A DNA stretch of 64,000 nt, from the sequence record MW650886.1. The stretch is one strand, 5' to 3'. The stretch is from Escherichia phage vB_EcoM-ZQ1. The notes beneath the pieces are model-generated. The model was not told the DNA's origin, searched no databases, and saw only the letters and a program-made list of their open reading frames with translations. The translations under genes and the position numbers were made by a program. Of the stretch, positions 15,106 to 36,307 are shown piece by piece. Every line of letters begins with the position of its first letter. Within the stretch, counting starts at the first letter, position 1.

Positions 15106-15420
15106 ATGACCCCATTAAAAGAAATGTATGAGCGTCTGGCTGAACTACAGGCGAAGGAAAAGCGCTTCTCAGAAGAAGAGTCTGAAATCGCCGAGCTGAA
15201 CAACCTGATTGCCACTCGTGAGAAGTACCTGCATCGCTACATTAATCACCCGCCGCGCATGGTAGACCGCGTCAGCACTATCATGGACCTGGATGAAGTT
15301 ACTCCTGGCAAAGAAATCATTGTCAGGGAAGTCCACCAGATGGTCGCCATGGGTCAGATCTTTGGTCGTGCAGACCAAGACGACATGATCTTCCTCCTTG
15401 AAAAGAAACTGGTGATGTGA
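15106..15420 (+). CDS. hypothetical protein
   Basis: 104-aa ORF with AAGAGG RBS. Confidence 0.45.
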   Translation: MTPLKEMYERLAELQAKEKRFSEEESEIAELNNLIATREKYLHRYINHPPRMVDRVSTIMDLDEVTPGKEIIVREVHQMVAMGQIFGRADQDDMIFLLEKKLVM

Positions 15421-15926
15421 TGGCTATCAAACCCCGTATGTTATTTGCGCATATGCGCTCGGCTCATGCATACGCTCTGTCCAGCTATGCCCAGCGCCTG
15501 AAGGTCGGCTGTGTTATCGTTGACCCGCGTGTTGACCAGCCCCTGTCTATCGGTTGGAACGGGACTGCTCCTGGCGCTCCTAATGTCTGTGAGAAGGAAG
15601 TAGACGGTCAACTGGTATCGGTGGGTGTTATCCACGCCGAGGAGAATGCTCTGAGCAAACTCCCCCAGCACACTGAAGACTGTTGTGGCCTGGTGATGTT
15701 TGTCACTCATAGTCCATGCCCAGAGTGCACCCGTCGTATTATCGGCAGTGGCAAGATCGCTAAAGTATTCTATGACCGACCATATCGTATCATAGACGGC
15801 ATTATTGAAATGCTGGCTGCTGGGATTGAAGTGTATCGCATGGTCGATCAGATTGTTGTAGTCCAGCATTCTGTGAAGAACGGCGAACTGGTATCCACCC
15901 CTGTTTTAGTGAACCCTGACAAATAA
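15420..15926 (+). CDS. dCMP deaminase (cytidine/deoxycytidylate deaminase zinc-binding family)
   Basis: HAEENAL (H-A-E) and SPCPEC (P-C-x-x-C) zinc-binding motifs; start overlaps the upstream stop (GTG at 15417, ATG at 15420). Confidence 0.8.
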   Translation: MAIKPRMLFAHMRSAHAYALSSYAQRLKVGCVIVDPRVDQPLSIGWNGTAPGAPNVCEKEVDGQLVSVGVIHAEENALSKLPQHTEDCCGLVMFVTHSPCPECTRRIIGSGKIAKVFYDRPYRIIDGIIEMLAAGIEVYRMVDQIVVVQHSVKNGELVSTPVLVNPDK

Positions 15927-23459: not shown

Positions 23460-24890
23460 TCACCCATTACCCTTCTCCAACAGGAATGCGATGTTTTCAA
23501 TGTACGCTTTCTGTATCGCATAGACTTCATCCAGTGTGTTGGCCACTTTCTTGTCAATGCGGACTTCTACAAGGCGAGGTAGGAACAAAGACTTCATCGC
23601 ATCATCTGTCTTATCCTGTACGCCATTGGAGAGCACTGCGGCGATTTTGCCAATGTAGTCGCCCTGGTTCTCCCACATATGGCGTCTCAGCTCATCTGAG
23701 ATCCCTGATACGCCAACAACAAGCAGGCTGTCGGAAGTTTTACAAATCAGTGAGCCAAAAGTCTTGGCGTGTTTGCCTTTCTTGTCGGCCTCGTTGAATC
23801 CCACGATTTCAAGGTCACACTCAACCTCCATCTTCAGCTTCAGACCTTCAGAAGAAGTACCATCTTCCCACGGCATGTCTGCGGCCTTACATATCGTGCC
23901 TTCTTCTTTGCGAGCCAGCGCGTCTTTGAAGTGGTCGACGGCTTCGGCAAATGAGTGAACAACACGAGTTTCTTGAACCTGAACCAGACCGTCGTCTTCA
24001 TCAAACAGTTGCTGGATGATATCGAAGCGGCGCTCATACGGGGTATCCACGCGTTGGGCGTTGAACCATTGTTCATACGGCACAACATCCCACACCCGGT
24101 AGATCACCCGATAACGATCTTCTAGGGGTTCTCCTGTCTGAATCACGCTGTTGAGTTTACCGTTACCGACAGCACGAGGCAGGATGGTATTCGACTTGAG
24201 GTCAACAACGAGAAGTTCACCATGGAACACACTCTCACCAATCCCCGTATCGTAGATCAGGTCTTTGAACACCAGTGAAAGGTTATCAACAGAACCACCT
24301 GCGATAAGGGAACCGGAGCGAGAGCGAATCTCAGGCTCTTTATTGTACCGACATATGATGTTGGCGAACATACCGTCTGACTTCAGCTGGCTGTAGACGC
24401 CACGCTTGAAGTCCATCTTCTTCAGCAGGTCAATTGTCATGTTGTCATAACGATGATACGGAAGAATGTTGATCAGGCGTCCAGTGCCTCCGGCGGCGTT
24501 GAATGCAGCGTTGATACCCTTCTCAGCGATACCCGCCTTGATATCACGGTCTAGGATCATCTGAATGAGTTCGTGGTATTGGGGATCCATCTTCAGGGCG
24601 ACAGAGGCCAACAGGGCATCAGCCTTTTGGCCACTGACAAGGCGCTGTGCCATCTGGTCGAGGACGTCATAGACTTCGCTGATGTCATCAGTCTTCTCAC
24701 GGACGAGCATGCGAGGGTACGCGCTGAGCTTCAACTCAGTCCGATAGAACGACGTCATTGGGTCATAGACATACTGCAGGAAGTCTGCCAAGTCTGGGTT
24801 GTTCTTGAATGCTTCGGTCAGCACGGCTTTCTTCGCATTGCTGCCTTTGGTTTCGCGAAGTCGGTGGACTGTTTCAAGGATAGGGATCAT
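23460..24890 (-). CDS. ATP-dependent DNA ligase (T4 gp30-like)
   Basis: 476 aa; nucleotidyltransferase motif I LKSDGMF (K-x-D-G); size matches T4 DNA ligase. Confidence 0.8.
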   Translation of the reverse strand: MIPILETVHRLRETKGSNAKKAVLTEAFKNNPDLADFLQYVYDPMTSFYRTELKLSAYPRMLVREKTDDISEVYDVLDQMAQRLVSGQKADALLASVALKMDPQYHELIQMILDRDIKAGIAEKGINAAFNAAGGTGRLINILPYHRYDNMTIDLLKKMDFKRGVYSQLKSDGMFANIICRYNKEPEIRSRSGSLIAGGSVDNLSLVFKDLIYDTGIGESVFHGELLVVDLKSNTILPRAVGNGKLNSVIQTGEPLEDRYRVIYRVWDVVPYEQWFNAQRVDTPYERRFDIIQQLFDEDDGLVQVQETRVVHSFAEAVDHFKDALARKEEGTICKAADMPWEDGTSSEGLKLKMEVECDLEIVGFNEADKKGKHAKTFGSLICKTSDSLLVVGVSGISDELRRHMWENQGDYIGKIAAVLSNGVQDKTDDAMKSLFLPRLVEVRIDKKVANTLDEVYAIQKAYIENIAFLLEKGNG

Positions 24891-24902
24891 GTGGTGTCTC
24901 CA

Positions 24903-24935
24903 GGGTTATATGTGCTGCTATTATAACCCTGGGGA
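24903..24935. repeat. 33-bp near-perfect palindrome (ccagggttata-N11-tataaccctgg) upstream of the ligase start
   Basis: 11-bp inverted arms read directly; no adjacent U-tract on either strand. Confidence 0.6.
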
Positions 24936-25004
24936 CTTCAATAGATTATTGGTGGGTGTGGGATCTTGCTTAGCCGATAATGACCGCAAATGTTTCTGTA
25001 TCCA

Positions 25005-25565
25005 TCATGAACCCTCCGCCCAGACAAAGCCGTATTTGTTCAGTAGATCCACGGTTTCACCACGAGCGCGAGCCACGATAGATTCTACTGATTCTTCCAC
25101 CTCGAGTGGTGGGCAACCAGCCTTTTCGTACGTGTTAAGCAAGAGAGCAAGTTCTTTTACGAACTCTTCTTGTTCCTCTCCTCCAAAGAACCACATCCGC
25201 AGATCGTCGCGTTCCCCGTGCTTGTTCAGAGAAGCCATATTCACGTACACGTAATCGTTTTTCTGAACAACGTCATTTATCTCCGGCCAATGCAACCCAG
25301 TCATCGCATAATTGAAGAATTCCGAAGGGGTGACTTCATCCGACAAATAATACAAACGGAAGTCACCGCTGGGGCCATGTTTGCAAGTTCTATCCAGCAT
25401 TATTTTGTGGATGTCAACACGGTCTCGCTTCAAGACTTCCCGTTTCTTCAGTCGACCTCTCAGCCAGGCACTGCCAATACACAAAAGAACGAAAGCAGTA
25501 GCACCAGTGAGTATGTTGAAAGAATCAATAATGTTCATAAGATCCCCGAAGTGATAAAGGGGCAT
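25005..25565 (-). CDS. membrane-anchored protein (N-terminal TM helix, soluble C-terminal domain)
   Basis: GGAGGGG RBS upstream of the ATG at 25565; N-terminal NILTGATAFVLLCIGSAWL is hydrophobic. Confidence 0.45.
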   Translation of the reverse strand: MPLYHFGDLMNIIDSFNILTGATAFVLLCIGSAWLRGRLKKREVLKRDRVDIHKIMLDRTCKHGPSGDFRLYYLSDEVTPSEFFNYAMTGLHWPEINDVVQKNDYVYVNMASLNKHGERDDLRMWFFGGEEQEEFVKELALLLNTYEKAGCPPLEVEESVESIVARARGETVDLLNKYGFVWAEGS

Positions 25566-25579
25566 AAGCCCCTCCGATG

Positions 25580-26188
25580 TTATTTGCTCAGGCTGGCGAG
25601 GTAGTTGTCGGCTTCGATAGACGACGGGCTGTTGGCGGAGTAGCTCGAATCAGCGATTTCGGTTTCGCGCAGGATGGCATCGATATCGATGGTGGTCATA
25701 CCAGCGGCATAATCGATATCTTCAGGGAGCACCAGACCCAGGTCGTTCGTCTCTTTCTGAACACGAACCAGCTCGAGATTGGACTTGACTTCGTCCAGTT
25801 TGTCACCCAGCTGGATGATCGCACCGTTCAGTTTGTCGCTGCTTGCTTCGATGTCCTTCACCTGAGCCAACAGGGCTTCACCGATACGGCGGCGATGCAG
25901 AATAATCAGGGCGTCGGCGCGGGTTGGTGTGACACCACGAGCGATGGCGTCCTTCAGAACTTCTTCGCGCTTGGCGGCTTCACTCAGGTTCTGTTCTGCG
26001 GTCTTCTTCAGTTTGACGCCGTTGCGGACGTTGGTGACACGGGCTTCCTCCAGGCGACGGATTTCGTCAGACAGCTTGCGAGCAGCCAGGTTCAGGCGCT
26101 TTTCGGTGTCGGTCAGTTTATCCAGACCTGCGGTGACGTTGGCTTCAACAGTGGTGAAGATGCGTTTCAGTAAGTTTTTCAGTGACAT
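25580..26188 (-). CDS. PspA/IM30-family (phage-shock protein A / Vipp1-like) protein
   Basis: 202 aa; N-terminal amphipathic helix then long heptad-like coiled coil (LKNLLKRIFTTVEANVTAGLDKLTDTEKRL...) resembling PspA; GAGGA RBS. Confidence 0.55.
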   Translation of the reverse strand: MSLKNLLKRIFTTVEANVTAGLDKLTDTEKRLNLAARKLSDEIRRLEEARVTNVRNGVKLKKTAEQNLSEAAKREEVLKDAIARGVTPTRADALIILHRRRIGEALLAQVKDIEASSDKLNGAIIQLGDKLDEVKSNLELVRVQKETNDLGLVLPEDIDYAAGMTTIDIDAILRETEIADSSYSANSPSSIEADNYLASLSK

Positions 26189-26205
26189 CAGTGTGTAGTC
26201 CTCAG

Positions 26206-26547
26206 TTATTTCTTCGGGGGTTCAATTGAGGTGAAAGAATCCTTCCAACTCTTGAATTTTTCAACTAGGGCTTCTTCACCCAGCTCGTCATTTGACACGC
26301 TGTGAATATAGGCGAATGCTCCATAGCCGGATCCTGGCATAGCCTTGCAGATGCGCAGACTGACCAAAGAATCTCCTACGGAAACAAGATAGTGGTCACG
26401 ACGATTGTTCAGGGCATAGTGGTTGTCATGAAACTTGTCGATAACAACACAGTTCTGAGGTTCGACGTCAATCGGTAGCCCGTTGGCTTCGGATCCACCG
26501 CGCCCAAGCACGCAGCCTGGGAATAATGTTTCTACGAGTGTGGTCAT
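26206..26547 (-). CDS. hypothetical protein
   Basis: 113-aa ORF, co-oriented with the PspA-like gene. Confidence 0.45.
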   Translation of the reverse strand: MTTLVETLFPGCVLGRGGSEANGLPIDVEPQNCVVIDKFHDNHYALNNRRDHYLVSVGDSLVSLRICKAMPGSGYGAFAYIHSVSNDELGEEALVEKFKSWKDSFTSIEPPKK

Positions 26548-26776
26548 GGTCTGTTCCTTCTGTAAGTTCCCATGTATTATATGGGTGAATCGTTTAATGA
26601 ATTATTTGTTATGGAAACCCAGAGCCTTGTAGACTTCTTCACGATTTTAATTTCGGCCTGAGCCTCTGTGTGATTAATCCGGCGCTTGTGTTGTCGGGCG
26701 TCAATGGCATCGATTAGACAACGGATCTCAGCGCATCAGGGGCTTACCCAACAGCCAGTTGAAATACTCGCGCATG

Positions 26777-30912: not shown

Positions 30913-31975
30913 GGTCCATTTGCTCCAGCATGTTAGCAGGCATAACAGTACCGTTAGAAACACCGAACATTTTCTTCACGTCATCGGCGAAGTTGACATT
31001 CTCCAGCAGCGGATACCAGAAATCATCATCCATCTGACGCTTCTGATATTTCTTTTCCTTCTCAGGATCGAAACCACCCTTGGTTGTACGCACATACCAA
31101 CCGGAAGACGGCATATCAACATAACCCAGAGCACGAGCGATCTCAAGCAGGCCGCTCCAGCGATCAATACCGCCGTTGTACAGTACCGTCACAGGGAGCT
31201 TGGCTTTCTCTTTGACATGGCGACCTTTCATGATGCTTATGTTGAAGTTCCAGCCCAGCAGATCTTTGTCTTCCTTCACCTGAGAACGGGTGATAAACCA
31301 GATCAAGTTGGAGGATAAGAAGCCCTGCTTGCCGCCTTTGATGTTAGGCTCGGCATATTGGTTGCCGATCTCATCGTAATAGGAGTTGATCCAAACACAC
31401 ACGAGATTTTTGCTATTGATTTCAGGAGTCATGACACGCCAGAAGCTGTTGAGGGCACGGGCGCGGGTCATGTCTTGAGTGTCGTTCCCTTTGATCGCAT
31501 CTTCAACTTCCTTGGTGGAGGGAAGTTGGCTGATAGAGTCGATGAAGATTATAACATGGTCGCCTTTCTTGACTTCCTGTAGGATCTGCAGCAAGCGGAT
31601 CTTGGTCTGTTCAACGTTGTCGATCGGTACGTACAGGACGCGGTCCATGTCAATGCCCATAGAGGTCCAGTAATCAGCGTTGGCACCCTTTTCCGAGTCA
31701 GCAAATACACAGATAGCATCAGGGAACTTGTCCATATAAGCCTTGACATCGACCAGGCCGAACATCGTTTTGAAGGTACGGGAATCACCCACCATCATCT
31801 TGATACCGGAGATCAGGCCGCCGTCAATACGCCCAGACCATGCGATATCGATCAGGGGAATACCAGTAGAACAGATGATAGACGGTTCCAGAGCGTCGGA
31901 TTTGGACAGCACTGAAGCCTGGTCATCGTGTTTCTTAGCAACCTTCAGCATGCGATCCATTAATGAACTGGCCAT
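30890..31975 (-). CDS. uvsX: UvsX recombinase (RecA/Rad51 family)
   Basis: 361 aa; extended collinear similarity to T4 UvsX from recall (GIPLIDIAWSGRIDGGL..., ICVFADSEKG..., VIIFIDSISQL..., MTRARALNSFWR...). Confidence 0.9.
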   Translation of the reverse strand: MASSLMDRMLKVAKKHDDQASVLSKSDALEPSIICSTGIPLIDIAWSGRIDGGLISGIKMMVGDSRTFKTMFGLVDVKAYMDKFPDAICVFADSEKGANADYWTSMGIDMDRVLYVPIDNVEQTKIRLLQILQEVKKGDHVIIFIDSISQLPSTKEVEDAIKGNDTQDMTRARALNSFWRVMTPEINSKNLVCVWINSYYDEIGNQYAEPNIKGGKQGFLSSNLIWFITRSQVKEDKDLLGWNFNISIMKGRHVKEKAKLPVTVLYNGGIDRWSGLLEIARALGYVDMPSSGWYVRTTKGGFDPEKEKKYQKRQMDDDFWYPLLENVNFADDVKKMFGVSNGTVMPANMLEQMDHVINTSE

Positions 31976-32502
31976 TTCACTTCCTCTTTGTTGTTAATCG
32001 TCGTTAGTAAGTCTACACCCATAACCTTCTGGGACAAAATGTTAACCGCCTCTTGGATGCTCTTCAGGGACATTGTCTCAACAAGTGACGATGCGTCATT
32101 ATGCCGGTCGGTTAGGTACATATTGCGCAGATTGTTGTAGTTCGTGCGGTTGATGCACGCAGTGTTCAGTGCTATATTCAGGATATACATCATCTGTTCA
32201 ATGGTTATATCCTTTGGTATAGCGTGGATGTAATAGATCGAGCCTTCAAAATAGACGTCTACCAGTTCATCTGGTATCTTGGCCCCACCACCGGCATAAT
32301 CTTCGATCATCCTGAACAGAGACTCTGGTTGCTCGCTGGCGATCTTATGCGTAACAGTCGCCGAAAGACCGTCGCCCGGTTTAACAGGCCTGGTGTATTC
32401 GGTAAGGAATACATTATGTCCGCCGCCGATGATGTGCTCGGCGAATTTGGAGGATGCCTGAGCAGCGTTCTCCGCATGGTATGAAACGACGACTGTAAAC
32501 AT
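31960..32502 (-). CDS. hypothetical protein (in the position of T4 beta-glucosyltransferase, no recognisable similarity)
   Basis: 180-aa ORF coupled between the NTP-PPase-like gene and uvsX. Confidence 0.45.
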   Translation of the reverse strand: MFTVVVSYHAENAAQASSKFAEHIIGGGHNVFLTEYTRPVKPGDGLSATVTHKIASEQPESLFRMIEDYAGGGAKIPDELVDVYFEGSIYYIHAIPKDITIEQMMYILNIALNTACINRTNYNNLRNMYLTDRHNDASSLVETMSLKSIQEAVNILSQKVMGVDLLTTINNKEEVKWPVH

Positions 32503-33056
32503 TAGAACTCCAGGGTCAGAGGGGTTTCTGCGGACTTGTCGTAATCCGCACCACCAGAAGCACGCAGACGATTGCGATCGTTCTTGCGTTTGTGTGCCAG
32601 TATGTAAGTCTCAATGTCGATCTCCATATAAGAACACGCAGACGACAGGAAGAACATGAGAGTCTCAACGCAAGGATCGTTCATGAATTGCCCAAGGCGG
32701 TACGTAACATTGCGATGCCCTACAACACCCAAAGCAGATGGGGTGAATTCGCGATTACTAAGGACTTCAAATTCTTCTTCGATCTCACCTTTGGTGCGGT
32801 CCACAAGGATGAAGCACAACATGAAGTGTACCACGTCCACCAGCTCATAAACTGCGTTCGTATGGTCAAACCCGATGTCGTTGCCATAGACCTTCCAGTC
32901 ACGGGTGGTTTCATCAAGGAACTCTGCCCACTCACGATAGATAGAGTTGATGACTGCGTTCTGACTCCATACATTCTTCCACTCTTCCCCAAAGTAGGCC
33001 ACGTTAGTGGCCTTTTGGAGTTCGAGCAGGCTTTTGATATGTCCTGCTGTGATCAT
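32502..33056 (-). CDS. all-alpha NTP pyrophosphatase candidate (dimeric dUTPase/dCTPase-like)
   Basis: acidic helix motifs (FGEEWKNVW ... YREWAEFLDE); ATGA-coupled to dNMP kinase; family assignment tentative. Confidence 0.4.
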   Translation of the reverse strand: MITAGHIKSLLELQKATNVAYFGEEWKNVWSQNAVINSIYREWAEFLDETTRDWKVYGNDIGFDHTNAVYELVDVVHFMLCFILVDRTKGEIEEEFEVLSNREFTPSALGVVGHRNVTYRLGQFMNDPCVETLMFFLSSACSYMEIDIETYILAHKRKNDRNRLRASGGADYDKSAETPLTLEF

Positions 33057-33622
33057 TTACGTTCTCCGTAGAATTTAACGAACGGTTCCCAACCATCAAA
33101 TGGATTGAGGAATTCGTAGTCCACTTTCATTTGGTCAATGAAAGCCTCTATATCGTCCTCTATGATACCAGCACGGTCGGCCTTTGAAATACGGGTGATA
33201 GGGCATTTCGTACTCAGCGCCCATTCATATTCCTGAGGGGTACGCAGATCACTCACGATATAATGGACGTGGGGGTTCTGCTCTACCAGAGGAAGCTGGA
33301 AGCGCTTGAAGAATGCCAGGAACAGATCGGGTTGTACGTAACGCAAGCCCGTATCGCTGCCTAGATGAAGCCAGATCTGCCGTGGAGTTAAGCCCTTGGG
33401 ATTATCAGGGTGCACGTAAGGAACGTCCTTCACGGCATCCTCTACCTCCGCTGGGAGCCATGGGTAGATGTAGTTGGCTACACGGCGCAGTTCATCAGAG
33501 AAAGAAAGGCGCTGTATGTCCATATCACCCTGTAAGTGGTGGTAACTGATCAGGGACTCCAAACAGAAGTCCTTACCGGAGCGCTTGCGCCCCGTAAAGA
33601 ATTCAAGATTTGGGTACATCAT
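33053..33622 (-). CDS. deoxynucleoside monophosphate kinase (T4 gp1-like)
   Basis: N-terminal P-loop FFTGRKRSGKD resembles the T4 gp1 signature. Confidence 0.7.
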   Translation of the reverse strand: MMYPNLEFFTGRKRSGKDFCLESLISYHHLQGDMDIQRLSFSDELRRVANYIYPWLPAEVEDAVKDVPYVHPDNPKGLTPRQIWLHLGSDTGLRYVQPDLFLAFFKRFQLPLVEQNPHVHYIVSDLRTPQEYEWALSTKCPITRISKADRAGIIEDDIEAFIDQMKVDYEFLNPFDGWEPFVKFYGERK

Positions 33623-34665
33623 ACTACACCTTCCAGGAACTTAGGATCAATGATCTTGCGGTCAACCGGGGAATGGGTGAGCGCGGTGTTCAAGCCATGA
33701 TCCTGAATCAGGTCCAGGTTAATGAGCTTTTCGTTCAGTTTACAGTGCAGACAGTACGCCATCTGTACAATCAGGCCGCGATCCGCATCGTATTCCTTCA
33801 GGTGAGCAACCACAGTTTCCCACGGGCTACCGATATCACAGTGATGAAGCACACCAGTGAACAGATTGCGGATATGGTTCTGGTTGGTCACGTTCGTGAA
33901 GTGAATCATGGAGTTGATGAACCCAGCTTCTACTTTGGTGTCCTTCGTGATCTTTCCCAGCTGCTTCTGGCTGACTTCATTGTTGTAGTAATGAAGATTG
34001 TTAGAGAATAGCTTGTACTGACCGACATCAACATCCAGCACCCGAGCAATCACTTCCTGAAGAATAGAGAACTCAATGAAGTTAATTGAACTCATCCCCC
34101 ACAGAACATCCTGTGAGCGGTTGATGACCGTCAGGTTCAGACGACCTTCAACGATGGCGAACAACAGAGCCAGGTTACACACCATGTCCTTAGTCTTTGC
34201 TTCGCCGCTCTCGCTGAACTTCGCCAGACCAGCATCCGAATCTAGAGCCGGGTCATAGATGGTGAGGTACGCCTGGCGAGTGTTTGGGTTCTTGCGCAGG
34301 CGGTTGATAACGCTATCCAGCTGGCCATGGGCGTACAGACGCGGACCATAAGCAGCTCGCCATGTTACCCCATCATCCGAAAAGTTAGCAGCGCGAGGCA
34401 ATACGCGTGACAGGAACTTTATGTCGTTGCGACCTGACAACACCCAGAAGGTCTCGCCGATGGCAGCGATAGCCGATGAGTTGCGACCTTCAACGGAGAG
34501 CCAGCGGTCACGAATATCGGAAACAGTGATCGTCACACCATCAAGGAAGCGGGTGCTATCAGTATTGATTTCAGCATTACCAGGATCAGATTCGATCCCG
34601 AATTCACGGATAGCCAAGACAGCCTGCTTCAGCATGTCATTGTTGTTAATTGCTTTGATTTCCAT
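33619..34665 (-). CDS. thymidylate synthase / pyrimidine hydroxymethylase family enzyme with about 100-aa C-terminal extension
   Basis: ThyA-fold motifs: ETFWVLSGRND, RKNPNTRQAYLTIYDP, catalytic-Cys region DMVCNLALLF (VCN instead of PCH), NRSQDVLWGMSSINF (R-S-x-D ... N); occupies the T4 gene 42 position. Confidence 0.75.
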   Translation of the reverse strand: MEIKAINNNDMLKQAVLAIREFGIESDPGNAEINTDSTRFLDGVTITVSDIRDRWLSVEGRNSSAIAAIGETFWVLSGRNDIKFLSRVLPRAANFSDDGVTWRAAYGPRLYAHGQLDSVINRLRKNPNTRQAYLTIYDPALDSDAGLAKFSESGEAKTKDMVCNLALLFAIVEGRLNLTVINRSQDVLWGMSSINFIEFSILQEVIARVLDVDVGQYKLFSNNLHYYNNEVSQKQLGKITKDTKVEAGFINSMIHFTNVTNQNHIRNLFTGVLHHCDIGSPWETVVAHLKEYDADRGLIVQMAYCLHCKLNEKLINLDLIQDHGLNTALTHSPVDRKIIDPKFLEGVV

Positions 34666-35336
34666 CAGATACTCCCAAAATCACGACAGAGGAATGCCAT
34701 CACAGCCTGGTCTACTGTTAGGCCGTGAGACTTCATCATACCCGCAGCCACCGTAGGGAACAAGTCTTTATGTCGTTGACGATGGTCATGAACTCTCTCC
34801 CACTTCTCGACCACCAGACTTTCATTGAAGTCCACACCGCCGTTACGTGATTTAACACGAGCGATACACGTTTCAAGAGGAGTGTCCATAAAGAGCACAA
34901 CCAATTCACGTGGTGGGCGTGTCAGACGGGGGATCCAAGAACTCAATAATGTGGATGGAATGATACCTTCGAAAATCACATCATATTTCAAGTATTCTGG
35001 TTGGTCAGCAATAGACAACGCGAACAACATCTGCTCAGTGTCCTTCAGGGAATCAACCCCCTTGGACTTCGACTTGTCATATTTACCGATACAGACCACG
35101 TTGAACGAAGGACAGACAGTCAGCATGACCTTGCCGTTATGGGTCACGACATACGCCTGAGGATCCCTCTCCGCCAGCTGAGACGGCACAGTGGATTTAC
35201 CGCTACCATTGGAGCCTTTGACGTAGTAGATTTGCCCTCGTGCTGGGTAGATCCCCTTTACGACGGGTGGTTTAAAGAATGTGTGGACGGGGCGCTTCAT
35301 CAGCCCCTTCAGGGAGTAGGACATAAACTGCTCCAA
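34665..35336 (-). CDS. P-loop kinase of unassigned specificity
   Basis: Walker A YYVKGSNGSGKST; coupled by 1-nt overlap to the ThyA-family gene. Confidence 0.55.
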   Translation of the reverse strand: MEQFMSYSLKGLMKRPVHTFFKPPVVKGIYPARGQIYYVKGSNGSGKSTVPSQLAERDPQAYVVTHNGKVMLTVCPSFNVVCIGKYDKSKSKGVDSLKDTEQMLFALSIADQPEYLKYDVIFEGIIPSTLLSSWIPRLTRPPRELVVLFMDTPLETCIARVKSRNGGVDFNESLVVEKWERVHDHRQRHKDLFPTVAAGMMKSHGLTVDQAVMAFLCRDFGSI

Positions 35337-35340
35337 TAAA

Positions 35341-35365
35341 CAAAAGGAGCTGCTATTATAGCAGC
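35341..35365 (-). terminator. rho-independent terminator on the minus strand (gctgcta-TAA-tagcagc then TCCTTTT)
   Basis: hairpin read directly, downstream of the stop at 35400. Confidence 0.5.
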
Positions 35366-35399
35366 CCCTTCATCTATTGAACAGTTTCTGAACTTAAAT

Positions 35400-36236
35400 T
35401 TACACAGCTTTCGCTTCAGCCAGAGCCTGTGGAAGCCATTCATTGATCGCCTTAACCAGAGACTCAGCATCAGACTCTTTGATCTTCTGACGTTTGGTGA
35501 AGGACTTGCCGTTCACATACAGACTGAAGCCCCAGCCACCGGAAACGATAGGCGCAACGTCGACATACGTATTGGTGCGGGCGTGAAGGTTTTCAGGGTT
35601 AGCCAGTTCGGTGACCGGGAACTGGAACCAACGCATGTCTGGGTTCACGTAGCTCAGGAACACGCTGGGAACAACACCAGCTTCAATCGCCGCCAAGACC
35701 GGACCGTGATCAGAAGCGCGAGCCACGTCAACCATTTCCTCACGTTTGGTGTGACGGCGTTTACGCTCTACCAGCGCCGCCTGCGGGGTCAGGGTCTTAC
35801 CCTTCGATGCTTCTTTCAACATAGAAGACGCCAAGGAACCGATTTTCGCGTCGGACGGCTGATTGCCTTCTTCCAGCGCCGCGTTGACTGCATCTTCAAC
35901 CGCGTCTACCGGGGCGTCGGACACTGAGGCTTCACATGCATCGGCAGAGATCGGTGCTTCAGCATCAATAGTTTCAGCGACTTTCAGGGATACTTCAGCT
36001 TGGGCTTGCTCTTGGGCTTGCGCCAGAGCCTGCTGAGTTTCTTCCTTCTCTTCGGCGCTCAGACCTTCAATCAGTTCGAAGCCGTTGGCAGCCTGAAGAA
36101 CACCTTCAACCATACGGCGCAGGGTAACGTTTCCGATGATCAGACCTGCTTCTTTGATTTCAGCCTGAATAGCAGCAACGTCTTTGCCTTCAATTTCAAT
36201 TTTGGTTCCAGAATCCACATGAAGAATATATGACAT
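35400..36236 (-). CDS. hypothetical protein with acidic Ala/Glu-rich linker
   Basis: 278-aa ORF; no assignable domain. Confidence 0.5.
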   Translation of the reverse strand: MSYILHVDSGTKIEIEGKDVAAIQAEIKEAGLIIGNVTLRRMVEGVLQAANGFELIEGLSAEEKEETQQALAQAQEQAQAEVSLKVAETIDAEAPISADACEASVSDAPVDAVEDAVNAALEEGNQPSDAKIGSLASSMLKEASKGKTLTPQAALVERKRRHTKREEMVDVARASDHGPVLAAIEAGVVPSVFLSYVNPDMRWFQFPVTELANPENLHARTNTYVDVAPIVSGGWGFSLYVNGKSFTKRQKIKESDAESLVKAINEWLPQALAEAKAV

Positions 36237-36307
36237 AATAAAAAACCCTTTCGTTATTAAGACCGTATCCGCGGCATATTGTTGTTCTGACTGTGTAGTG
36301 AGAACAT

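What the first reader, a model, noticed from the sequence alone, without database searches (positions are those of the whole stretch)
34665..35336. Unassigned P-loop kinase coupled to the ThyA-family gene
A 223-aa Walker-A protein (GSNGSGKST) overlaps the ThyA-family start by 1 nt, implying co-expression. T4 already supplies dNMP kinase (present here at 33053-33622), so a second kinase in this operon needs another substrate. 5-hydroxymethyl-pyrimidine DNA kinases of thymidine-hypermodifying phages are P-loop kinases of about this size, which makes that a testable hypothesis.
Basis: inference. Interest (0 to 1): 0.65.

Follow-up and report, generated by a model that had tools for sequence, protein, structure and literature searches.

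The report
Known phage 5-hydroxymethyluracil DNA kinase

Summary
The ORF is real. It lies on the minus strand, carries the Walker-A motif GSNGSGKST, and its TGA stop overlaps the ATG of the ThyA-family gene by 1 nt. The likely start is ATG 35324 (219 aa), not TTG 35336 (223 aa).

The protein matches Pfam PF18748, "5-hmdU DNA kinase", end to end (E 1.5e-108, 361 bits against a cut-off of 27). It is 88% identical, without gaps, to Salmonella phage ViI gp67 (YP_004327432). Lee et al. (PMC8989533) showed that ViI gp67 moves one phosphate from ATP onto 5-hmdU in DNA, giving 5-PmdU. That is the first post-replicative step towards the hypermodified base 5-NeOmdU.

The window is an Aglimvirinae phage, 98.5% identical over the 3.3-kb locus to Escherichia phage vB_EcoM-RPN242. 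It is not T4. The gene order kinase, dUMP-hydroxymethylase-like, dNMP kinase, dUTPase is conserved out to Vibrio phages.

The remaining pathway genes (second kinase HMUD2, serine:DNA transferase, PLP decarboxylase, aGPT-Pplase1) are not in the window. All are present in the nearest relative.

Interest is low. The practical value is correcting the widespread mislabel "terminase small subunit".

The parts
34665..35324 (-).
   Evidence: ORF list. Pfam PF18748 E 1.5e-108, profile positions 1-195 of 196. 88% identity over 219 aa without gaps to ViI gp67. 99.5% identity to Escherichia phage LHE287.
35190..35216 (-). Walker-A / P-loop GSNGSGKST (residues 37-45)
   Evidence: Read directly from the sequence. 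G40, G42, K43 and T45 are invariant in the 17-sequence family alignment A1.
35331..35334 (-). Shine-Dalgarno GGAG, 6 nt upstream of ATG 35324
   Evidence: Sequence. Conserved in ViI and RPN242.
35343..35371 (-). GC-rich hairpin followed by a T-run (intrinsic-terminator-like) between the upstream gene and the kinase. The extended stem also pairs with the kinase SD.
   Evidence: Terminator scan, 13-bp stem. RNA MFE -34.4 kcal/mol, z -6.9. About 55 nt are 100% identical to ViI. A different GC stem plus T-run sits at the same place in phiMAM1 and Vibrio phage K474.
34663..34667 (-). ATGA stop/start overlap (1 nt shared) between the kinase and the ThyA-family gene
   Evidence: Sequence. The same 1-nt overlap is in ViI, K751 and phiMAM1; Vibrio phage K474 has a 4-nt overlap.
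33619..34665 (-). ThyA-superfamily enzyme, probable dUMP hydroxymethylase (makes 5-hmdUMP), 348 aa
   Evidence: Pfam Thymidylat_synt E 1.1e-15. PHROG 3676 E 4e-183. 77% identity to ViI Vi01_060c. Nearest solved relative is MilA CMP 5-hydroxymethylase at 1.4e-17, against 1e-6 to 1e-9 for true thymidylate synthases. It has Asn where MilA has Asp. Lee 2018 labels this gene 'dU hmt' next to 5-HMUDK.
33053..33622 (-). dNMP kinase, 189 aa; 4-nt overlap with the ThyA-like gene
   Evidence: PHROG 139 E 1.2e-47. 91% identity to ViI 'dnk' Vi01_059c.
32502..33056 (-). dUTPase_2 / MazG-type NTP pyrophosphohydrolase, 184 aa
   Evidence: Pfam PF08761 E 5.8e-9. PHROG 173 E 5.8e-40.

Best explanation
The gene encodes the HMUD1-type 5-hydroxymethyl-2'-deoxyuridine DNA kinase (5-HMUDK) of a ViI-like Ackermannviridae phage, the orthologue of ViI gp67.

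Proposed pathway. dUTPase and dCMP deaminase supply dUMP. The adjacent ThyA-like enzyme converts dUMP to 5-hmdUMP. The phage dNMP kinase and a host NDP kinase raise it to the triphosphate, and the phage polymerase incorporates 5-hmdU in place of T.

The 219-aa P-loop kinase then acts on the DNA polymer. It binds ATP through GSNGSGKST and an hhhhEG motif and transfers one gamma-phosphate to the 5-hydroxymethyl oxygen of 5-hmdU, giving 5-PmdU and ADP. The phosphate is the leaving group for a serine:DNA transferase (gp247 type). A PLP decarboxylase (gp226 type) then yields 5-(2-aminoethoxy)methyl-dU, which blocks many restriction enzymes.

Shown here: family membership, orthology, synteny, and conservation of the motifs and of the gene overlap. 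Shown in the literature for the orthologue: the kinase reaction and the downstream steps. Inferred: that this particular protein, and this phage's DNA, behave the same way.
For: Pfam PF18748 HMUDK_HMUD1 matches at E 1.5e-108, 361 bits (cut-off 27), covering the whole profile.

Identity to ViI gp67 / YP_004327432 is 88% over 219 aa with no gaps. The neighbouring genes are the same: dUTPase, dnk, thyA, gp67.

ViI gp67 produced the 418-u 5-PmdUMP species from 5-hmdU DNA. For the homologue M6 gp54, ADP was the only other major product and only a single phosphate was added (PMC8989533 section 15). ViI gp67 was part of the five-protein reconstitution of 5-NeOmdU (PMC5889632).

The nearest relative, RPN242, carries orthologues of all other pathway proteins (76-91% identity). 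Their Pfam families are HMUDK_hel, PALP, HMUD2 and ADDT.

All 27 homologues found in the protein database carry PF18748.

Walker-A residues G40, G42, K43 and T45, together with E119, G120, D91, R160 and K174, are invariant across 25-88% identical homologues. These include the Yuavirus kinase (from the M6-like 5-HMUDK phage group) and a kinase of the Bacillus spounavirus Nachito, which sits beside an aGPT-Pplase clade 1 gene.

The AF2 model (pLDDT 88) is a P-loop kinase fold.

A review states that the modification genes are conserved across Ackermannviridae (PMC11721090). 5-NeOmdU was measured in another genus of the family, Taipeivirus phiHS2.
Against: No assay exists for this exact protein or phage. 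The other four pathway genes are outside the 64-kb window, so their presence in this genome is inferred from collinearity with relatives. No solved structure of the family exists, so the roles I suggest for D91, R160 and K174 are inferred. I found no statement on whether gp67-type kinases also accept free nucleotides.
Confidence: 0.95

Rival explanations
1. It is an ordinary nucleotide kinase acting on free nucleotides (thymidylate kinase or 5-hmdUMP kinase), as some GenBank records label it ('putative thymidylate kinase', 'cytidylate kinase').
Against: No Pfam thymidylate kinase, thymidine kinase or dNK family appears at E <= 0.1, while PF18748 scores 361 bits. The 88%-identical ViI gp67 phosphorylates the base in polymeric DNA. 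A separate dNMP kinase already sits two genes downstream. The structural similarity is only at superfamily level (TM <= 0.51).
Confidence: 0.03
2. It is a polynucleotide (5'-OH end) kinase, like T4 PNK or bacterial Pnkp.
Against: Sequence identity is only 12-17%, comparable to many other P-loop kinases in the same list. The orthologue's phosphate is added internally: for the homologue M6 gp54 it protects an NcoI site, and a base-phosphorylated nucleotide was recovered.
Confidence: 0.01
3. It is the small terminase subunit, as RefSeq and PHROG 800 annotate it.
For: PHROG 800 is labelled 'terminase small subunit' and matches at E 2e-68. Many RefSeq and Pharokka-style records carry that name.
Against: The genuine small terminase lies next to the large terminase elsewhere: ViI Vi01_162c/161c and RPN242_gp152/gp151. 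No Pfam terminase family matched. The match covers only positions 4-220 of a 511-position PHROG profile. The orthologue has kinase biochemistry. The label therefore looks like a propagated annotation error.
Confidence: 0.005

Closest known systems
Salmonella phage ViI (Vi01) gp67, YP_004327432: 5-hmdU DNA kinase (Lee et al. 2018 PNAS; Lee et al. 2021/22 NAR)
   Same: 88% identical over the full length with no gaps. Same Pfam family (PF18748). Same position upstream of the ThyA-like gene, with the same 1-nt stop/start overlap. The ~55-nt upstream hairpin region is identical.
   Different: Different subfamily and genus (Aglimvirinae versus Cvivirinae/Kuttervirus). There are 27 substitutions, none in the invariant family columns. 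This protein is untested.
M6-like Pseudomonas phage kinases (M6 gp54 characterised; YuA gp13 compared here), a kinase of Bacillus phage Nachito (P-loop kinase beside an aGPT-Pplase clade 1 gene), and by literature PhiW-14 gp37 and SP10 gp186N
   Same: Same Pfam family and the same reaction, 5-hmdU to 5-PmdU in DNA. They share the Walker A, hhhhEG, D91, R160 and K174 columns.
   Different: Only 25-31% identical and shorter at the N-terminus: they lack the first ~30 residues, including the strand at residues 8-12 of the model. The downstream chemistry differs (glycine, putrescine or glutamate adducts). In YuA the kinase is three genes away from the hydroxymethylase rather than overlapping it.
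ViI gp243 / RPN242_gp183: 5-hmdU DNA kinase 2 (Pfam PF18747, HMUD2)
   Same: Also a P-loop kinase shown to make 5-PmdU, and encoded in the same genomes.
   Different: Only 23% identity over 167 aa (E 6e-4). It is 301-304 aa, belongs to a different Pfam family, and lies near the serine:DNA transferase gene outside the window.
Polynucleotide kinases and NMP kinases (C. thermocellum Pnkp 4gp6, T4 PNK 1ltq, adenylate and UMP/CMP kinases)
   Different: Only 12-17% identity. Their substrate is a 5'-OH end or a free NMP rather than a nucleobase hydroxymethyl group inside DNA.
ThiD hydroxymethylpyrimidine kinase
   Same: Lee et al. cite it as the nearest chemical precedent, phosphorylation of a pyrimidine hydroxymethyl group.
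   Different: From background knowledge, it has an unrelated ribokinase-type fold and acts on a free small molecule. No sequence match was seen here.

Membership tests
5-hmdU DNA kinase, HMUD1 type (Pfam PF18748) | Full-length profile match above the curated threshold | tested here: met
   361.2 bits against a cut-off of 27, E 1.5e-108, profile positions 1-195 of 196.
5-hmdU DNA kinase, HMUD1 type (Pfam PF18748) | P-loop (Walker A, GxxGxGKS/T) and the acidic hhhhEG motif conserved with characterised members | tested here: met
   GSNGSGKST and DVIFEG are present. G40, G42, K43, T45, E119 and G120 are invariant in alignment A1, which includes ViI gp67 and a YuA (M6-like) kinase.
5-hmdU DNA kinase, HMUD1 type (Pfam PF18748) | Orthology to an experimentally characterised enzyme | tested here: met
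   88% identity without gaps to ViI gp67 in a syntenic position. The activity of gp67 is reported in PMC8989533.
5-hmdU DNA kinase, HMUD1 type (Pfam PF18748) | Genomic association with a dUMP hydroxymethylase (the source of 5-hmdU) | tested here: met
   The adjacent ThyA-family gene overlaps by 1 nt. This association was noted by Lee 2018, Fig. 2 legend. It is conserved in K751, phiMAM1 and Vibrio phage K474.
5-hmdU DNA kinase, HMUD1 type (Pfam PF18748) | Co-occurrence in the genome with an amino-acid:DNA transferase (aGPT-Pplase2 / ADDT) that uses 5-PmdU | tested here: inconclusive
   It is not in the 64-kb window (tblastn). It is present in the collinear nearest relative RPN242 as gp186, PF18724. 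The rest of this genome is not available.
5-hmdU DNA kinase, HMUD1 type (Pfam PF18748) | ATP-dependent phosphorylation of 5-hmdU within DNA to 5-PmdU | not testable with these tools
   This needs a biochemical assay. It has been shown only for the orthologue.
Thymidylate kinase, thymidine kinase or dNMP kinase | Profile match to the family model | tested here: not met
   No such Pfam or NCBIfam family matched at E <= 0.1 / 0.01. The only signal is PHROG 761 at 1e-6, which is 62 orders of magnitude weaker than the protein's own family.
Terminase small subunit | Terminase-small domain and adjacency to the large terminase | tested here: not met
   No Pfam terminase match. The real TerS/TerL pairs lie elsewhere in ViI and RPN242.
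Polynucleotide 5'-kinase | Sequence-level membership | tested here: not met

The most novel reading that the evidence does not exclude
The two very divergent DNA kinases of Ackermannviridae may not be redundant.

The HMUD1-type kinase in this window may work as a pair with the gp160-type helix-hairpin-helix protein (aGPT-Pplase1). Pfam now names that protein family 'HMUDK_hel, 5-hmdU DNA kinase helical domain'. It is fused to the kinase in SP10 gp186 and sits two genes after the kinase, across one small ORF, in Bacillus phage Nachito.

The HMUD2 kinase, by contrast, sits three genes upstream of the serine:DNA transferase gene and may serve it.

Such a split could decide which thymidine positions become hypermodified. 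The literature reports that only about 16-40% are.

The strictly conserved hairpin upstream of this kinase, which is terminator-like, contains TATAAT and pairs with the SD, could time its expression.
Probability: 0.2. Interest if true: 0.45.

Novelty: already known. Interest (0 to 1): 0.12.

Why it matters
As a discovery it matters little. The enzyme family was predicted in 2013, demonstrated in 2018-2021 and has its own Pfam model. Near-identical proteins (99.5%) are already in GenBank.

It matters for annotation. In many GenBank and RefSeq records the gene is labelled 'terminase small subunit', 'thymidylate kinase', 'baseplate hub' or 'hypothetical protein'.

It also predicts that this phage's DNA carries 5-NeOmdU. 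That affects restriction digestion, sequencing chemistry and susceptibility to host defences.

Three questions remain open: why these phages keep two unrelated-looking DNA kinases, what sets the partial level of modification, and what the enzyme looks like (no structure of the family is solved).

Tried and rejected
- **PDB sequence search with the kinase:** only spurious P-loop hits at E >= 0.009, so there is no solved relative.
- **NCBIfam:** no family for the kinase.
- **tblastn of ViI gp160, gp226, gp243 and gp247 against the window:** no hits. They lie outside the window.
- **Rfam (gathering threshold) and tRNA scans of the whole window:** nothing.
- **Search for further copies of the upstream hairpin in the window:** none. 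The inverted-repeat finder did not report it, although the terminator scan and RNA folding did.
- **Sigma-70 promoter scan:** not enriched over shuffles, and no site called directly upstream of the kinase.
- **Small-terminase reading, from PHROG 800 and RefSeq labels:** considered and rejected.
- **TTG 35336 as the start codon:** considered and judged less likely than ATG 35324.

Full report
**Observation.** The minus-strand ORF 34665..35336 is present as described. Direct reading of the sequence shows three things:
- The Walker-A motif GSNGSGKST is encoded at 35190..35216.
- The stop TGA lies at 34667..34665.
- The ATG of the next gene, a 348-aa ThyA-family protein, lies at 34665..34663. The two genes therefore share one base (ATGA).

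The mechanical ORF starts at TTG 35336 (223 aa). An ATG at 35324 is preceded by GGAG at the right distance, and homologues are annotated from that Met (RPN242_gp052; ViI gp67). The three codons between the TTG and this ATG are GAG CAG TTT here; two of them differ in ViI (GAG CAC ACC). In phiMAM1 an upstream ATG lies out of frame with the annotated start; I did not check for a TTG equivalent there. I therefore take the protein to be 219 aa.

**What genome this is.** Megablast of 33000-36300 finds 267 phage records. The best is Escherichia phage vB_EcoM-RPN242 at 98.5% (Ackermannviridae, Aglimvirinae), followed by other Escherichia, Enterobacter, Shigella (Ag3) and Dickeya phages. The whole window is collinear with RPN242 positions 1370-65314 at 92-98% identity, with a few indels. 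It is a ViI-like phage, not T4, although it has T4-like replication genes such as UvsX, gp32 and gp41.

**What the protein is.**
- Pfam gives a full-length match to PF18748 HMUDK_HMUD1, "5-hmdU DNA kinase": E 1.5e-108, 361 bits against a cut-off of 27, profile positions 1-195 of 196. Nothing else is above threshold, only generic P-loop families at E > 1e-4.
- PHROGs places it in phrog_800 (E 2e-68), which carries the label "terminase small subunit". Thymidylate kinase (1e-6) and polynucleotide kinase (3e-3) are far behind.
- NCBIfam has no model for it.

The ViI record shows the same gene string: dUTPase, dnk, thyA, Vi01_061c. Vi01_061c is YP_004327432 (orf00067), which RefSeq mislabels as "terminase small subunit". 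[quoted passage not shown] The window protein is 88% identical to it over all 219 residues without a gap. The neighbouring ThyA-like and dNMP-kinase proteins are 77% and 91% identical to their ViI counterparts.

**What is known about the orthologue.**
- Lee et al. 2018 (PMC5889632) showed that ViI DNA contains 5-(2-aminoethoxy)methyl-dU (5-NeOmdU). Lysates expressing gp67, gp160, gp226, gp243 and gp247 rebuilt it on 5-hmdU DNA. The paper also noted that 5-HMUDK co-associates with a dUMP hydroxymethyltransferase.
- Lee et al. 2021/22 (PMC8989533, section 15) showed that M6 gp54 makes a 418-u nucleotide, 5-PmdUMP, from SP8 DNA. ViI gp67, ViI gp243, PhiW-14 gp37 and SP10 gp186 do the same.
- For M6 gp54, ADP was the only other major product, only one phosphate was added, and the label was internal to the polymer.
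- The phosphate is then displaced by serine through gp247, a clade-2 aGPT-Pplase that acts as an amino-acid:DNA transferase. gp226, a PLP enzyme, decarboxylates the product.
- A 2024 review states that the modification genes are conserved throughout Ackermannviridae (PMC11721090).
- A 2026 preprint measured 5-NeOmdU (~16% of T) in a Taipeivirus with the same gene set.

**The rest of the pathway.** tblastn with the ViI proteins finds only gp67 and the ThyA-like gene in the window. In RPN242 all the others are present:

| ViI protein | Identity in RPN242 | RPN242 position |
|---|---|---|
| gp160 | 76% | 83956-85149 |
| gp226 | 91% | 137230-138504 |
| gp243 | 82% | 147795-148700 |
| gp247 | 88% | 149258-150484 |

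Their Pfam families are HMUDK_hel (PF18723), PALP, HMUD2 (PF18747) and ADDT (PF18724). For this genome their presence is therefore inferred from collinearity.

Within the window the supply side is visible:
- a dCMP-deaminase-type ORF at 15417..15926 with HAE and PCPEC motifs (RPN242_gp026 is annotated as such);
- a dUTPase_2/MazG-type enzyme at 32502..33056;
- the dNMP kinase at 33053..33622;
- the ThyA-like enzyme.

The nearest solved relative of the ThyA-like enzyme is the CMP 5-hydroxymethylase MilA (1.4e-17), ahead of true thymidylate synthases (1e-6 to 1e-9). The catalytic Cys aligns. The residue that is Asp in the cytosine-specific MilA is Asn here, as in uracil-specific thymidylate synthases. 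The meaning of Asn versus Asp is established knowledge of the family, and its application to this protein is inference.

**Family and fold.** tblastn finds homologues in 404 phage records: Ackermannviridae of Salmonella, Klebsiella, Escherichia, Dickeya, Serratia and Shigella; ~157-kb Vibrio phages; M6/YuA-like Pseudomonas siphoviruses; and Bordetella and Bacillus phages. All 27 clusters found in the large protein database carry PF18748.

A 17-sequence alignment spanning 25-88% identity keeps these residues invariant: G40, G42, K43 and T45 (P-loop); G80, Y82, G89 and D91; E119 and G120 (end of the hydrophobic strand, Walker-B-like); C153, R160 and K174. I suggest R156/R160 (SRNGG) act as lid arginines and D91/Y82 are part of the acceptor site. 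That assignment is inference.

An AlphaFold2 model is confident (pLDDT 88.3, pTM 0.87). Its PDB neighbours are only generic P-loop kinases:
- uridylate and adenylate kinases;
- tRNA-ligase kinase domains;

All are at 11-25% identity with TM <= 0.51. No sequence relative is in the PDB. No structure of this family has been solved.

**Operon context.** From the kinase onward the genes are packed with 1-, 4-, 4-, 1- and 16-nt overlaps: kinase, ThyA-like, dNMP kinase, dUTPase, ACT_phage-domain protein, UvsX. The order kinase, ThyA-like, dNMP kinase, dUTPase and the kinase/ThyA-like stop-start overlap are retained in four other phages:
- ViI: 1-nt overlap;
- Klebsiella phage K751: 1-nt overlap;
- Serratia phage phiMAM1: 1-nt overlap, at 56% protein identity;
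- Vibrio phage K474: 4-nt overlap, at 46% protein identity.

Upstream, the 75-nt spacer contains a terminator-like hairpin at 35371..35343 followed by TTTTGTTTATT. The whole spacer folds at -34.4 kcal/mol (z -6.9), and the extended stem pairs with the kinase SD. About 55 nt are 100% identical between this phage and ViI. In phiMAM1 and the Vibrio phage a different GC stem plus T-run sits in the same place. I did not resolve its role.

**Rivals.**
- A free-nucleotide kinase is very unlikely. The profile scores are far weaker, the orthologue's substrate is polymeric DNA, and a separate dNMP kinase is present.
- A polynucleotide end-kinase is supported only by fold-level similarity.
- The "small terminase" label is contradicted by the real TerS/TerL pairs elsewhere and by the absence of any terminase domain. 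It looks like a propagated annotation error.

**Verdict.** The gene is an orthologue of a biochemically characterised enzyme in a well-described pathway, so it is already known and of low interest.

The least conventional reading the data leave open is a division of labour between the HMUD1 kinase, possibly partnered with the gp160-type "HMUDK_hel" protein, and the HMUD2 kinase that lies three genes upstream of the transferase gene. The pieces behind this reading are:
- the SP10 gp186 fusion of kinase and gp160-type protein;
- in Bacillus phage Nachito, an aGPT-Pplase clade 1 gene two genes after the kinase, across one small ORF;
- only 23% identity between the two kinases.

I give that reading a probability of about 0.2.

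Noticed in passing
window 35325-35399 (-), core 35343-35371: The spacer upstream of the kinase forms a long hairpin (RNA MFE -34.4 kcal/mol, z -6.9) ending in a T-run. About 55 nt are 100% identical to ViI, although the flanking proteins are only 77-88% identical. TATAAT sits in the loop, and the extended stem pairs the kinase Shine-Dalgarno. phiMAM1 and a Vibrio phage have a different GC stem plus T-run at the same spot. It could be a terminator combined with a promoter or a translational control element.
   Followed up: partly
window 34665-35324 and homologues in about 400 phage records: The 5-hmdU DNA kinase is widely mis-annotated as 'terminase small subunit' (RefSeq and PHROG 800). Other labels are 'thymidylate kinase', 'cytidylate kinase', 'baseplate hub' and 'hypothetical protein'. 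The true small terminase lies beside the large terminase elsewhere in these genomes.
   Followed up: yes
window 24950-26719: A 1.8-kb segment next to the DNA ligase gene is absent from the nearest relative RPN242. It carries three minus-strand ORFs: 25005..25565, 25580..26188 and 26206..26547. The middle one matches the PspA/IM30 family (Pfam E 4.9e-11). Conversely, an HNH endonuclease gene of RPN242 (record 24783-25382) has no counterpart in the window.
   Followed up: partly
window 33619-34665 (-): The ThyA-family protein is closer to the CMP 5-hydroxymethylase MilA (PDB 5b6d, E 1.4e-17) than to any solved thymidylate synthase (>= 3.5e-9). It has Asn at the position where MilA has Asp, and a ~100-aa C-terminal extension with no Pfam match. 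This is consistent with a dUMP hydroxymethylase. GenBank mostly calls it 'thymidylate synthase'.
   Followed up: partly
window 31960-32502 (-): The 180-aa ORF between the dUTPase and UvsX matches Pfam PF24021 'Phage ACT-like domain' over its full length (E 3e-78). Its function is unknown, and it is packed into the same overlapping gene string as the nucleotide-metabolism genes.
   Followed up: no
window 35400-36236 (-): The 278-aa acidic, Ala/Glu-rich protein just upstream of the kinase belongs to phrog_3905 (unknown function, E 1.6e-133). It is conserved at this position in ViI, K751, phiMAM1 and Vibrio phages, and has no Pfam or NCBIfam family.
   Followed up: no
window 15417-15926 (+): This is a dCMP-deaminase-type ORF with HAE and PCPEC zinc motifs. 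It corresponds to RPN242_gp026, 'deoxycytidylate deaminase', and is a likely source of dUMP for the hydroxymethylase. The listed GTG start may be too far upstream.
   Followed up: partly
whole window: No tRNA genes (ARAGORN) and no Rfam family at gathering threshold were found in the 64 kb. In the relative RPN242 the tRNA genes lie at record positions ~135.7-136.1 kb, outside the region that corresponds to the window.
   Followed up: yes
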